NCBI GenBank assembly: GCA_951406725.2
Contig: OX597842.1
Coordinates: forward strand, 24,552,001-24,616,000
DNA length: 64,000 nt
Reading direction: 5' to 3'
From: Octopus vulgaris
Lineage: Eukaryota
Shown: piece by piece, positions 9,184 to 60,185 of the stretch
Numbering within the stretch: the stretch's first letter is position 1
Layout: the number at the start of each line of letters is the position of its first letter
Position numbers and translations under genes: made by a program
The notes under the pieces: model-generated
Databases searched by the model: none
Told to the model about the DNA's origin: nothing
Seen by the model: the letters and a program-made list of their open reading frames with translations, nothing else

Positions 9184-10341
9184 ATGAATGGTCTGGAGAT
9201 GTTAAAAGAAAGAGAAAAGTTATCAGACCAATGTGATATCTGTAAAAAGACTTTTTCTAATAAGGGAAATCTCACTCTTCACAAATGTATTGATCCAGGG
9301 GGAAAGAAATATTACTGTGATATTTGTGGTAAATCATTCTCTCAAAAAAGTTACCTTACTCATCACAAATTCGTTCATACTGGAGAGAAACCACATCACT
9401 GTGATATCTGTGGTAAATCATTCTCTGAAAAATATAACCTTACTAAACACAAATCCATTCATACAGGAGAGAAACCATATCAATGTTGTATTTGCGGTAA
9501 ATCATTCTCTCATAGAAGTTCCCTTGATTCTCACAAACACATTCATACAGGAGAGAAACCACATCAGTGTGATGTTTGTGGTAAATCATTCTCTCAAAAA
9601 AGTAGCCTTAATTCTCACAAATACATTCATACGGGTGAGAAACCGTATCAGTGTGATATCTGTGATAAATCCTTTTCATTAAAAAGTTATTTAACTACTC
9701 ACAAATCCATTCATACAGGAGAGAAACCATATCGATGTGATATTTGTGGTAAATCATTCACTCAGAAATGTAGCCTCACTCATCACAAATACACTCATAC
9801 TGGAGAGAAACCATATCAATGTGATATTTGTGGTAAATCATTCTCTCAAAGGAGAGGCCTTACTTATCACAAATACACTCATACAGGAGAGAAACCATAT
9901 AAATGTGATATTTGTGGTAAATCATTCTCTCAAAAAGGTCACCTTACTTATCACAAATCAGTTCATACAGGTGAGAAACCATATCAGTGTGATATCTGTG
10001 ATAAATCCTTTTCATTAAAAAGTTATTTAACTACTCACAAACTCATTCATACTAATGTGAGGCCATATCCCTGTGATATTTGCGGTAAATCATTCACTCA
10101 GAAATGCAGCCTCACTTCTCATATACCTATTCATACTGGAGAGAAACCATATCACTGCAATATATGTGGAAAATCATTCTCTCATAGGAGTGACCTTACT
10201 TATCACAAATCAGTTCATAAAGGAGAGAAACCATATCACTGTGATATCTGTGGTGTAGCATTCTCTGAAAAAAGTCGCCTTGCTTATCACAAATACACAC
10301 ATACAGGAGACAATCCATATCCCTGTGATATATCTGTGTAA
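9184..10341 (+). CDS. C2H2 zinc-finger protein A1, 13 fingers (first is C2HC-like); further fingers out of frame to ~10530, degenerate finger tail to ~10980
   Basis: Tandem CxxC-x12-HxxxH units with TGEKP linkers; no KRAB/ZAD/BTB-like N-terminus; candidate splice acceptors end at 8847 and 9098. Confidence 0.92.
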
Positions 10342-11579
10342 ATCATTTTCTTCTAGAAGCAGTTTAACCTCTCATAGATACATTCACACAGCAGAGAGAC
10401 CATATTCTTGCGATATCTGTGATAAGTCATTTTGTTTAAAAAAATATTTAACTGATCACAAACACGTTCATACAGGTGAGAAACCATATCGGTGCTATAT
10501 CTGTGGTAAATCATTCTCTCAAAAAGGTACTTAAATAGACACAAATGCATTAATACAGGGGACAAACCATAGCACTGTAGTATCTGCAGTAAATTATTCC
10601 GTTTAAGAAAATATTTAATTAATTACAAGTCTGCTCATACTGGAGAGAAACTATGTGACTTAGATGTCTGCAGCAAATCATTCTCTTGTGAATATGCTGT
10701 ATATACTTATAAACGTATTCATACAGGAGAGAAACTCTACTGCTGTGATATCTGAGGTAAATCATTCTCTGTGGAACAATATTGAACTCATCACAAATAC
10801 ATTCATACAGGAGAGAAATCATATCACTGTGACATCTGTGACAAGTCATTCTTTCATAGAGAGAAATAATAAACTAAACACAAACATATTCATACAGGAT
10901 AAGATTCTTATGACTGTGTAATCTGTGCTAAGTCATTCTCTCAATAATCTACCTTAACTAAACATATACTTATTCATATTGATCAATAACAATATCAATG
11001 ATAAAACAGATGTCCTGCTGAATAAAATACAGCAAATGTATTACTTTTTACAAAATAAATTCATTTTTCACATTTTCCTCATTTGCATCAACTCACTAAT
11101 TACGATTTGTATTTTTTATTCAAACAATATTGATTATATTAATTTGCTCTGTTTTCTTGTGGATATATTATTTTGACACAAATGTATTACACTCCAGTTC
11201 CCATCCATGATCAGTTATCCTCTGCTGGACACACTCAGGGATCCCAGGATCTGCACCCTTTGTGCTACTGCCCACATATTCTGGCACTAGCTGGAGGCTT
11301 ATTGCTGTTTGTCACAGTTTTGGGTGTAGAGTGGGAAATATTTTTCAAAAGCCTAATGCCCCACTCTACCTATGGTTCAAGCACATCCCCGCTCAACCCA
11401 TGCAAGGGATTATCATCATACTTATTTTTTGCTAAATCATTCTGTAGAGCAGGTTTTCATAGTCTTGTTCTTACCAGACACCAAGCAGGGATTTATGATG
11501 GGCATCTGGTTAGAATGGCACCTGTTGTGATGAGAGTTGCCATGTCCCCTTGTGAGAGATAGACTGGTCCGAGTAAAGT

Positions 11580-56400: not shown

Positions 56401-58503
56401 CATGACCCTGGGTTCTCCGCTGCTCTTCTGCTGCATAAACTTTCGGATAGTGCTCCATGCTCTCTGGGCATCTGCAAAACTGGCATAGTAGGGAGAGTTC
56501 ACTGTATCCATATTTATTATTGAAATATCACTTCCAATGTCTAACTGAAGTTTAATATGTATTCCAATCATTTTTACGTGTACGAATTTTGTTTCTGTTC
56601 AGAGCCCTCTAGGATCTTTAATGGTTAATCTTCAGAATTTAGTTCTGCAGTGTGAATTTCTGTATATTCAGTGTTGTAAGGCCTTGTACCAAAAGAAGAC
56701 ACCTGAATATTTTAGGTGTAAATTCTTTGAGTTTAAAAATATTCACACATTCTGTTAATTGTTACTGCGTATGTGATAAAATCACCATCCTCTTTTTTCA
56801 TTATATTCCAAAACACCATCCAAGTGTTAGAGAAGTTTTATCACCGAATATGTTAGACAGTAATTCTATTGTTTCTTTAAAACAAATTTCATTGAGTTTT
56901 TTCGGGTAATATGAAATTAAAATAATGTTCATACTCAGATGGGGCTCATTTATGTCATAATAACCTTACTTTTTCTGTGTCTGACCATGTCTTACAATCA
57001 TCCTTAAAAATTAGCTGCTGTAGTACAATGCAACAGTTATACCATCCTCTGGGTTATAACTGGATTCATCGAGTCCAAAACGTCGTCTGGCAAAAATGTA
57101 CTTCCCTCATTTTTGGACTTCTTTGAATAAAGCTCCAATAATTGTTGTTGTTGCTGCCTTTGTCGTTGATTTTTCAACAGTTTTAAAGAAGCTAATTAGT
57201 CTTCCATGATTTAACAATTTTGTATCACAAAAATTTGTTAACTGACCTGCAAGAGCTTCGAAACCCTCATCGCCAGATGTTGTAACATAATTGTTCCGTA
57301 CAATAAATAAGATAACCAGAAAATTGTAACAACAATCTAATGAACTAACAAATCTTTTAAGAACCAAGATTCAATATTCCTTAGGAAGTAAACCAAGCGA
57401 CACCTTCCGACTTCACTTCACTCTGAACCGCAAACTCACTCAGATCGTTACTATTTATACTTTACTCGGAGCAGTCTATCTCTCACAAGGGGACATGGTA
57501 ACTCTCATCACAACAGGTGCCATTCTAACCAGATGCCCATCATAAATCCCTGCTTGGTGTCTGGTAAGAACAAGACCATGAAAACCTGCTCTACAGAATG
57601 ATTTAGCAAAAAATAAGTATGATGATAATCACTTGCATGGGTTGAGCGGGGATGTGCTTGAACCATAGGTAGAGTGGGGCATTAGGCTTTTGAAAAATAT
57701 TTCCCACTCTACACCCAAAACTGTGACAAACAGCAATAAGCCTCCAGCTAGTGCCAGAATATGTGGGCAGTAGCACAAAGGGTGCAGATCCTGGGATCCC
57801 TGAGTGTGTCCAGCAGAGGATAACTGATCACGGCTGGGAACTGGAGTGTAATACATTTGTGTCAAAATAATATATCCTCAAGAAAACAGAGCAAATTAAT
57901 ATAATCAATATTGTTTGAATAAAAAACACAAATCGTAATTAGTGAGTTGATGCAAATGAGGAAAATGTGAAAAATGAATTTATTTTGTAAAAAGTAATAC
58001 ATTTGCTGTATTTTATTCAGCAGGACATCTGTTTTATCACTGATATTGTTATTGATCAATATGAATAAGTATATGTTTAGTTAAGGTAGATTATTGAGAG
58101 AATGATTTAGCACAGATTACACAGTCATCAGAATCTTCTCCTGTATGAATATGTTTGTGTTTAGTTTATTATTTCTCTCTATGAAAGAATGACTTGTCCC
58201 AGATGTCACAATGATATGATTTCTCTCCTGTATGAATGTATTTGTGATGAGTTCAATATTGTTCCACAGAGAATGATTTACCTCAGATATCACAGCAATA
58301 GAGTTTCTCTCCTGTATGAATACGTTTATAAGTATATACAGCATATTCCTGAGAGAATGATTTGCTGCAGACATCACAGTCACATAGTTTCTCTCCAGTA
58401 TGAGCAGACTTGTAATTAATTAAATATTTTCTTAAACGGAATAATTTACTGCAGATACTACAGTGCTATGGTTTGTCCCCTGTATTAATGCATTTGTGTC
58501 CAT

Positions 58504-60185
58504 TTAAGTACCTCTTCTGAGAGAATGATTTACCACAGATATAGCACCGATATGGTTTCTCACCTGTATGAACTGATTTGTGAGAATTAAGGCTACTTTT
58601 TTGAGAGAATGATTTACCACAAATATCACAGTGATGTGGTTTCTCTCCTGTATGAATGTATTTGTGATAAGTAAGGCTACTCCTATGAGAGAATGATTTA
58701 CCACAAATATCACAGGGATATGGCCTCTCATGAGTATGAATGGATTTGTGAGTAGTTAAATAACTTTTTGATGAAAAGGATTTATCACAGATATCACACT
58801 GATATGGTTTCTCACCTGTATGAACTGATTTGTGATAGTAAGGTTACTTTTTGAGAGAATGATTTACCACAAATATCGCATATGTGGCTTCTCACGTGTA
58901 TGTGTAAGTTTGTGAGTAGTTAAATGACTTTTCAATGAAAAGATTTATCACAGATATCACACTGATATGGTTTCTCACCTGTATGAACTGATTTGTGATA
59001 AGTAAGGTGACCTTTTTGAGAGAATGATTTACCACAAATATCACATTTATATGGTTTCTCTCCTGTATGAGTGATTTGTGATAAGTAAGGCCTTTCCTTT
59101 GAGAGAATGATTTACCACAAATATCACATTGATATGGTTTCTCTCCAGTATGAGTGTATTTGTGATGAGTGAGGCTACATTTCTGAGTGAATGATTTACC
59201 ACAAATATCACATCGATATGGTTTCTCTCCTGTATGAATGGATTTGTGAGTAGTTAAATAACTTTTTAATGAAAAGGATTTATCACAGATATCACACTGA
59301 TACGGTTTCTCACCTGTATGAATGTATTTGTGAGAATAAAGGCTACTTTTTTGAGAGAATGATTTACCACAAATATCGCACTGATACGGTTTCTCACCTG
59401 TATGAATGTGTTTGTGAGAATCAAGGGAACTTCTATGAGAGAATGATTTACCACAGATATCAACATTGATATGGTTTCTCTCCTGTATGAATGGATTTGT
59501 GTTTAGTAAGGTTATATTTTTTAGAGAATGATTTACCACAGATATCACAGTGATATGGTTTCTCTCCTGTATGAGTGTATTTGTGATAAGTAAGGGCTCT
59601 CCTTTGAGTGAATGATTTACCACAAATATCACAGGGATATGGCCTCTCATGAGCATGAGTGAGTTCGTGAGTAGTTAAATGACTTTTTGATGAAAAAGAT
59701 TTATCACAGATATCACACTGATATGGTTTCTCACCTGTATGAACTGATTTGTGATAAGTAAGGTGACCTTTTTGAGAGAATGATTTACCACAAATATCAC
59801 ATTTATATGGTTTCTCTCCTGTATGAGTGTATTTGTGATGAGTGAGGCTACATTTCTGAGTGAATGATTTACCACAAATATCACATCGATATGGTTTCTC
59901 TCCTGTATGAATGGATTTGTGAGAATCAAAGGAACTTCTATGAGAGAATGATTTACCACAGATATCACAGTGATGTGGTTTCTCTCCAGTATGAGTGTAT
60001 TTGTGATGAGTAAGGTAACTTTTTTGAGAGAATGATTTACCACAAATGTCACAGTAATATTTCTTTCCCCCTGGATCAATACATTTGTGAAGAGTGAGAT
60101 TTCCCTTATAAGAAAAAGTCTTTTTACAGATATCACATTGGTCTGATAACTTTTCTCTTTCTTTTAACATCTCCAGACCATTCAT
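58504..60185 (-). pseudogene. C2H2 zinc-finger gene A3; eight fingers in frame, then frameshifts (~59462, ~59075, ~58930-58800); about 20 finger units in total
   Basis: ORFs 59460-60185 and 58892-59656; MNGLEM start; degenerate tail to ~58060. Confidence 0.85.

What the first reader, a model, noticed from the sequence alone, without database searches (positions are those of the whole stretch)
9184..60185. Finger arrays behave like hypervariable minisatellites: same flanks, different finger number and order
Seen: helix strings differ between copies whose flanks are near-identical. A1 reads [56 protein letters not shown], whereas A3 reads [57 protein letters not shown]1/B2/B3 have 14/~18/13 fingers, with GKSNLTR, RKSNFNR and LRSYLTA in different orders. 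C1/C2 have 13/19. Variation concentrates in the DNA-contacting helix, and LKSYLTT is shared between the A and B types. Inferred: a modular pool of 84-bp fingers is recombined to create new DNA specificities, as in PRDM9 or KRAB-ZNF arrays, but here in proteins with only ~15 residues before the first finger and no effector domain.
Basis: partly seen in the sequence, partly recalled or inferred. Interest (0 to 1): 0.75.

Follow-up and report, generated by a model that had tools for sequence, protein, structure and literature searches.

The report
Octopus zinc-finger genes swap finger blocks
Eight neighbouring zinc-finger genes, likely from an octopus, fall into three sets of near-identical copies that differ in the number and order of their DNA-reading fingers, likely through ordinary misaligned recombination as in mammalian zinc-finger clusters; the fingers are far less uniform than in PRDM9 and five copies are broken as assembled.

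Summary
Eight poly-C2H2 genes (three types) have 5' flanks 96-99% identical within a type, yet carry 10-19 fingers in different orders. A3 is a mosaic of A1 with 7-9 in-register switches, versus 0 in 240 simulated colinear copies. But the order is not freely shuffled: A1 fingers 2-8 lie in order in A3 at 7-13, and change comes as block gains, block losses and hybrid fingers. It is not PRDM9-like: no SET or KRAB domain; fingers within a gene are only 78% identical; 32 of 660 pairs exceed 90%. Contact residues vary most and the scaffold is constrained, but positive selection is not established, since decayed fingers show the same excess. Five of eight frames break early. Best reading: a young, effector-less cephalopod C2H2 cluster evolving like KRAB-ZNF clusters. 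Array order could not be checked in independent reads. The scan noted the same pattern before on other DNA (octopus-type, shark, chimaera).

The parts
9184..10998 (+). Gene A1: ORF 9184-10341 (385 aa, 16-aa leader, 1 atypical + 12 canonical fingers), two more fingers behind a +1 shift, then a decayed tail of 6 fingers
17017..18546 (-). Gene B1: 14 fingers, +1 frameshift in the unit at 18078 ends the ORF at 189 aa; decayed tail
24133..25523 (+). Gene A2: 10 fingers, indels in units at 24601 and 24683 end the ORF at 161 aa; decayed tail of 6
32284..33924 (-). Gene B2: 18 fingers, in-frame stop in the linker of the unit at 33372 (ORF 209 aa)
37557..39156 (-). Gene C1: 13 fingers in one open frame (38019-39137), but one extra base puts the ATG out of frame; decayed tail
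44568..46668 (+). Gene C2: 19 fingers, stop after the 14th (ORF 403 aa); six fingers more than C1; decayed tail
50299..51740 (+). Gene B3: intact ORF 50299-51435 (378 aa, 1 atypical + 12 canonical fingers); decayed tail
58040..60185 (-). Gene A3: 19 fingers, mosaic of A1-like blocks; four units with length changes, ORF ends at 241 aa; decayed tail of 6
62359..64000 (+). Upstream region and first codons of a ninth gene (C3), cut by the window end; 96% identical to the C2 upstream region
23427..60894 (.). Large inverted duplication: A2-B2-C1 arm (about 23.4-40.6 kb) mirrored by C2-B3-A3 arm (about 43.1-60.9 kb); B2/B3 upstream 3.67 kb are 98.8% identical. A1-B1 is a further copy of the A-B pair
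21401..21760 (+). Conserved 5' element ending in a donor-like GTAAG (putative non-coding first exon, inferred); homologues before A1, B1, C1, C2, A3, C3, none found before B2 and B3
   Evidence: splicing not shown
2715..8561 (-). Young Gypsy-type LTR retrotransposon (LTRs 98.8% identical; protease, RT, RNase H, integrase) inserted between A1's 5' element and its finger exon

Best explanation
These are eight copies of a short-leader C2H2 zinc-finger gene, likely of an octopus, whose finger arrays differ by whole blocks and hybrid fingers, likely because the 84-base repeats misalign during recombination or repair; this would change which DNA each protein binds. Shown: three gene types duplicated as tandem and inverted multi-gene blocks; in-register block gains, losses and within-finger hybrids between near-identical copies; a constrained scaffold with variable contact residues; no effector domain; frequent breakage. 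Inferred: the mechanism (unequal crossover, gene conversion or template switching between sister, allelic or paralogous arrays, mostly within a type); that new arrays bind new sites; that targets include transposons; and that copies are born and die as in KRAB-ZNF clusters. Without an effector domain they most likely act by occupying sites or by recruiting partners through some of the fingers (inference, untested).
For: A3 is explained from A1 by 10 segments with 73 mismatches in 2100 nt; 7-9 switches (4-5 backward) at penalties 4-8; a forward-only path costs 163 mismatches against 78; other pairs 2-7 switches; 0 switches in 240 of 240 colinear simulations. 15 of 104 fingers are better explained by two parents (gain of 4 or more mismatches) against a mean of 4.8, maximum 11, in 100 column permutations. 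Internal duplicates have diverged by 0-7 nt (A3 u3/u11 2, u4/u13 0, u5/u16 7; C2 u9/u14 1, u10/u15 2), as events of different ages would. pN/pS over all pairs: Zn ligands 0.02, scaffold 0.35, contact positions 1.0-1.25. The best N-terminal match among the 230 proteins fetched is Octopus sinensis P0163 (56% over 39 aa), which has the same short leader. Contigs of three runs guessed to be RNA cover the A-type leader region. Finger gain and loss is the most frequent domain change between primate KZNF orthologues (PMC3126818), and young mouse KZFP clusters grow by multi-gene segmental duplication with strain-specific fingerprint arrays (PMC12575710).
Against: Finger order was not verified in independent reads. 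No whole genome was held, so true donors outside the window are unknown; residual mismatch after the mosaic fit is 4.6% in live fingers against 1.2-1.9% in most flanks. Five of eight frames break early, and length changes in live arrays (8 units in 9492 nt) are about as frequent per copy as in flanks (21 events in 10325 pairwise-aligned nt), so many copies may be dead or carry read errors. RNA status of the runs is a guess and no spliced joint was shown. DNA binding and targets were not tested. The species is inferred.
Confidence: 0.62

Rival explanations
1. Neutral churn in a decaying cluster: the arrays expand and contract as any tandem repeat does, most copies are pseudogenes, and new finger orders have no selected function.
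For: Five of eight ORFs end early and C2 stops after 14 of 19 fingers; indels are not depleted in arrays relative to flanks; the contact-site excess is as large in decayed tail fingers (1.86) as in live ones (1.57); B2 and B3 lack the conserved 5' element.
Against: Zn ligands (pN/pS 0.02-0.14) and scaffold (0.34-0.67) are constrained, also among close pairs; A1, B3 and C2 keep 378-403-aa frames; decayed tails stayed colinear between copies while live parts rearranged, though their higher divergence alone could explain that.
Confidence: 0.17
2. Assembly artefact: tandem units were mis-joined, or diverged haplotypes were laid side by side as an inverted duplication, and the frameshifts are unpolished read errors.
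For: Clustered 1-3-nt indels in A2 and A3 arrays and a homopolymer-type extra base in C1; flank divergence of 1.2-1.9% is in the range that alleles could show (general knowledge); array order untested in reads.
Against: The longest exact internal repeat is 136 nt (A3) and 38-64 nt in the other seven arrays; identical windows at 22 inferred breakpoints are only 0-27 nt; duplicated fingers carry private differences; three copies of each type cannot all be alleles of one diploid locus. Mis-placed haplotypes would make the differences allelic, not unreal.
Confidence: 0.11
3. PRDM9-like coding minisatellite: homogenised fingers, hypervariable alleles and strong positive selection on contact residues, drawing on one shared pool of units.
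For: Same 84-bp in-register template-switch pattern as described for PRDM9 alleles (PMC8600002); contact pN exceeds scaffold pN (31/406 vs 44/1637, p=1.3e-5); proportion of diversity at binding columns 0.31-0.34 touches the low end of complete vertebrate PRDM9s (0.33-1.0).
Against: DNA diversity between fingers 0.20-0.26 against 0.079 (human) and 0.034 (mouse) PRDM9; 32 of 660 within-gene pairs over 90% identical against all pairs in mouse Prdm9; contact pN vs pooled pS p=0.11 in 41 disjoint close pairs against dN/dS of 10-14 in human PRDM9; no SET or KRAB; exchange mostly within type.
Confidence: 0.1

Closest known systems
Cephalopod expanded C2H2 zinc-finger genes and clusters (PMC9068888, 4 passages; PMC12513265, opening part and 12 passages; Octopus sinensis P0163)
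   Same: Clustered tandem poly-C2H2 genes; short leader ending in a MLKE..K...CDICKK first finger; no KRAB.
   Different: The passages read describe gene number, phylogeny and expression, not finger-level turnover between young paralogs.
Young mammalian KRAB-ZNF clusters (PMC12575710, 12 passages; PMC3126818, 6 passages)
   Same: Multi-gene segmental duplications, LTR elements inside the cluster, finger gain and loss, copy-specific fingerprint arrays, arrays truncated by point lesions.
   Different: No KRAB or other effector found here; targets and repression untested.
PRDM9 zinc-finger minisatellite (PMC2779102, PMC8600002, passages; PMC5519329, passages, Table 1, two supplement rows)
   Same: 84-bp units, in-register switches, hybrid fingers, contact residues most variable.
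   Different: No KRAB-SSXRD-SET; fingers 78% rather than over 90% identical; much weaker contact-site signal; variation seen between paralogs, alleles untested.
Cyprinid FiNZ-ZNFs and predicted TE-binding metazoan ZNFs (PMC10547256, passages)
   Same: KRAB-less lineage-specific poly-ZNF expansion; octopus ZNFs are predicted there to be enriched for TE targets.
   Different: FiNZ genes have a conserved 28-aa domain on its own exon; none was found here.

Membership tests
Cephalopod expanded tandem C2H2 genes | Tandem Kruppel-type C2H2 fingers with TGEKP linkers | tested here: met
Cephalopod expanded tandem C2H2 genes | Clustered, tandemly duplicated genes | tested here: met
   8 genes plus a ninth start in 64 kb
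Cephalopod expanded tandem C2H2 genes | Cephalopod host | tested here: inconclusive
   Best leader match among 230 fetched proteins is O. sinensis P0163; earlier scan notes call the genome octopus (unchecked); run organisms are coded
Cephalopod expanded tandem C2H2 genes | Expression in nervous tissue | not testable with these tools
   Only contigs of runs guessed to be RNA, tissue unknown
PRDM9 | KRAB, SSXRD and SET domains before the array | tested here: not met
   Pfam of A1, B3, C2 gives no SET or KRAB; tblastn of 4 SET- and 5 KRAB-bearing N-termini against the non-array window: 1 hit, E=0.93
PRDM9 | Concerted evolution: fingers of one array over 90% identical | tested here: not met
   32 of 660 pairs over 90%, 1 identical; diversity 0.20-0.26
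PRDM9 | Diversity concentrated at DNA-binding residues | tested here: inconclusive
   0.31-0.34 at Baker's columns, 0.32-0.42 at -1,2,3,6; human 0.687, mouse 0.910, lowest complete orthologue 0.33
PRDM9 | Strong positive selection at -1, 3, 6 | tested here: inconclusive
   pN/pS 0.9-2.0 by pairing; p=0.11 and p=0.017 as an upper bound with the same excess in decayed tails
PRDM9 | High allelic polymorphism of finger number and order | not testable with these tools
   One assembly only; no reads over the arrays
KRAB-ZNF | KRAB domain on an upstream exon | tested here: not met
   open frames upstream of the ATG have no homologue
KRAB-ZNF | Cluster growth by multi-gene segmental duplication with finger gain and loss | tested here: met
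KRAB-ZNF | Binding and repression of transposable elements | not testable with these tools
   No binding-motif predictor or ChIP data here

The most novel reading that the evidence does not exclude
Octopus effector-less zinc-finger arrays form a fast combinatorial recognition repertoire: several in-register rearrangements per 1-2% of flank divergence, polymorphic between individuals and selected at contact residues, rewiring DNA targets (young transposons or neural regulatory sites) without any KRAB-like domain.
Probability: 0.2. Interest if true: 0.65.

Novelty: new member of a known kind. Interest (0 to 1): 0.33.

Why it matters
Cephalopods carry hundreds to thousands of C2H2 genes whose targets and mode of action are unknown (PMC12513265, PMC9068888). 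This cluster shows at base level that young copies change finger order much faster than their flanks diverge, the route known from mammalian KRAB-ZNF clusters, and gives three intact proteins (A1, B3, C2) to test. The mechanism itself is known, so the value is as a test case for how effector-less zinc-finger expansions diversify.

Tried and rejected
No whole genome was held, so no genome-wide paralog survey. Finger order and frameshifts could not be examined in public reads; this question stays open. No RNA holder on record was listed (no evidence either way). Whole-protein and leader homology searches gave generic C2H2 hits at 36-60% identity, mostly generic hits with three Octopus proteins and nothing for residues 1-44. 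Exact look-up found 0 of 7 ORFs, although the ESM Atlas holds A1 letter for letter. Idea that the leader region is a decayed N-terminal effector domain: the 56-aa alternative frame 9066-9233 gave 1 hit in 1.84 billion proteins, an unrelated repeat protein at 23% identity; not supported. Two-exon model with a conserved acceptor 375-412 nt before finger 1: contigs of RNA-guessed runs run unspliced across the A3 site and none of the 15 joints shown came from them (74 not shown); not confirmed. Recent exchange between types: longest exact tracts 30-65 nt between types against 62-220 nt within, and two deep finger classes (22 vs 82 units) occur in all three types, so shared helices such as LKSYLTT are better read as old shared ancestry. 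A helix-centred crossover hot spot (13 of 15 switch points at nt 27-48) was not claimed because informative sites cluster there. Albertin et al. 2015 was not held; not used. Binding-motif prediction against the LTR was not run (no tool).
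Full report
Layout. A six-frame scan and tandem-repeat search find eight arrays of 84-bp C2H2 units. By their leaders they fall into types A (A1 9184+, A2 24133+, A3 60185-), B (B1 18546-, B2 33924-, B3 50299+) and C (C1 39156-, C2 44568+), with a ninth gene starting at the window end. Self-comparison shows A2-B2-C1 mirrored by C2-B3-A3 as an inverted duplication and A1-B1 as a further copy. A Gypsy-type LTR element with 98.8% identical LTRs lies 620 nt upstream of A1. 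The organism is inferred to be an octopus: my first guess was recalled; the best leader match among the 230 proteins fetched is O. sinensis P0163, 56% over 39 aa; earlier scan notes use the same label (unchecked).

Observation. The quoted helix strings and counts are right. Within a type the 620 nt before finger 1 are 96.0-98.7% identical, between types 79-84%. Arrays hold 15/10/19 (A), 14/18/13 (B) and 13/19 (C) fingers before a decayed tail.

How the arrays differ. A base-level copying model explains A3 from A1 with 10 in-register segments and 73 mismatches in 2100 nt. Across penalties 4-8 there are 7-9 switches for A3/A1, 3 for A2/A1, 3 for B3/B2 (deletions only), 3-7 for B1/B2 and 2 for C1/C2; 240 of 240 simulated colinear copies with 4-6% substitutions give none. 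The order is not free: A1 fingers 2-8 recur in order as A3 fingers 7-13, and C1 and C2 are colinear apart from a six-finger indel. Still, neighbouring pairs are often broken: 5 of 17 kept in A3 vs A1, 3 of 8, 2 of 11, 2 of 12 and 9 of 17 in the other pairs. 15 of 104 ungapped fingers (9 of 113 dropped for gaps) are better explained by two parents, against a mean of 4.8 and a maximum of 11 in 100 permutations, so recombination also makes hybrid helices. Exchange is mostly within a type: 77 of 113 fingers have their only nearest neighbour in a same-type paralog, 23 in the same gene or tied with it, 6 only in another type, 7 tied with another type. A tree of 104 units (84 columns, poorly resolved, and violated by recombination) needs 21 type changes against 48 shuffled and a minimum of 2, and splits two old finger classes present in all types.

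Artefact? Not excluded, because array order could not be checked in reads. Against it: exact internal repeats are short (136 nt in A3, 38-64 nt elsewhere), identical windows at 22 inferred breakpoints are 0-27 nt (window paralogs are only stand-ins for the true donors), internal duplicates differ by 0-7 nt, and three copies per type exceed a diploid's alleles. For it: clustered small indels in A2 and A3.

PRDM9 test. Fingers are 77.8% identical within a gene, 78.5% within a type and 77.5% between types. 32 of 660 within-gene pairs exceed 90% and 1 is identical, whereas all mouse Prdm9 fingers exceed 90% (PMC2779102, passages). DNA diversity between fingers is 0.20-0.26 against 0.079 and 0.034 for human and mouse PRDM9 (PMC5519329 supplement rows). 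The share of amino-acid diversity at that paper's four binding columns is 0.31-0.34 against 0.687 and 0.910; this touches the lowest complete orthologues (0.33, rank 5 of 227) and a partial one (0.31, rank 68 of 308) (Table 1), so it lies in the upper tail of ordinary C2H2 genes. No SET or KRAB was found. It works partly like PRDM9's array (in-register switches; PMC8600002, passages) but is not a member, and is not homogenised.

Selection. Over all pairs pN/pS is 0.02 at Zn ligands, 0.35 on the scaffold and 1.0-1.25 at contact positions. In 41 disjoint close pairs contact pN exceeds scaffold pN (p=1.3e-5) but not pooled pS (p=0.11); in 23 colinear positional pairs it is 0.87 of pooled pS. Residual differences after the mosaic fit give 1.57 (p=0.017, an upper bound), but decayed tail fingers give 1.86 (p=0.17, few sites), so conversion patches from unseen donors could produce the excess. 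The safe statement is a constrained scaffold with free contact residues.

Coding status. From the ATG, A1 (385 aa), B3 (378 aa) and C2 (403 aa) give long proteins; A2 (161), A3 (241), B1 (189) and B2 (209) end early, and C1's ATG is out of frame. Length changes in live arrays (8 units in 9492 nt) are about as frequent per copy as flank indels (21 in 10325 pairwise nt): decay or read error. The leader is 16 aa; the first finger of A and B lacks the second histidine. Upstream frames have no Pfam family or real homologue. A conserved 5' element with a donor-like site precedes seven of nine genes, but splicing was not shown; contigs from three RNA-guessed runs cover the A-type leader region unspliced. 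Contact positions are poor in arginine (4 of 104 at -1, 8 of 104 at +6), which by the usual recognition code (recalled) points to AT-rich or loose targets.

Comparison and novelty. Finger gain and loss is the commonest domain change between primate KZNF orthologues (PMC3126818, 6 passages); young mouse KZFP clusters expand by multi-gene duplications with strain-specific fingerprint arrays (PMC12575710, 12 passages). Cephalopod C2H2 expansions are described (PMC9068888, 4 passages; PMC12513265, first 10,000 characters and 12 passages), and octopus ZNFs are predicted to favour TE targets (PMC10547256, passages). Three searches listed no paper on finger-level turnover in cephalopod arrays; the library is incomplete and Albertin 2015 was not held. 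I also saw passages of bioRxiv 10.64898/2026.09.07.749791 (PRDM9 criteria) and PMC5100051 (background). Earlier scan notes report the same pattern in another octopus-type genome, a shark and a chimaera; they are not independent support.

Verdict. Real as assembled and probably real in the animal; a known evolutionary mode (KRAB-ZNF-like array turnover and birth-and-death) in an effector-less cephalopod cluster; not a PRDM9-type minisatellite. Interest 0.33.

Noticed in passing
window 2119-2308, 20228-20572, 21401-21760, 40925-41225, 42181-42362, 61214-61570, 61764-61975: Conserved ~200-350-nt 5' element (70-77% identical) with an invariant TTCGTTTCGT word and a donor-like GTAAG before seven of nine genes; none found before B2 and B3, which lie directly downstream of C1 and C2 on the same strand and might borrow their first exon.
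   Followed up: partly
window 2715-8561: Young Gypsy-type LTR retrotransposon (LTRs 98.8% identical, frames broken into four pieces as assembled) inserted between A1's 5' element and its finger exon.
   Followed up: partly
window 10493-10998, 25018-25523, 58040-58546, 37557-38015, 46212-46668: A and C genes end in a shared tail of 5-6 decayed fingers behind the stop; the tails stay colinear between copies while the live arrays rearrange.
   Followed up: partly
window 60814-61440 and 61747-62364: 630-nt inverted repeat (95%) carrying the 5' elements of the head-to-head genes A3 and C3; C3's first-exon region is A-type, and C1/C2 share a similar 296-nt inverted pair (40812-41107 / 42181-42475, 98%).
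   Followed up: no
window 41600-41740: Decayed remnant of one or two zinc fingers on the minus strand between the C1 and C2 promoters.
   Followed up: no
window 60762-61177: Very high-copy interspersed repeats (SINE-like, label recalled) upstream of A3, with contig depth orders of magnitude above the flanks in all four runs.
   Followed up: no
window 9232-9315, 18415-18498 and paralogs: The first finger of all A and B genes lacks the second histidine (H-K-C-I-D/E) yet is nearly invariant (1-3 nt differences within a type); the C-type first finger is canonical.
   Followed up: no
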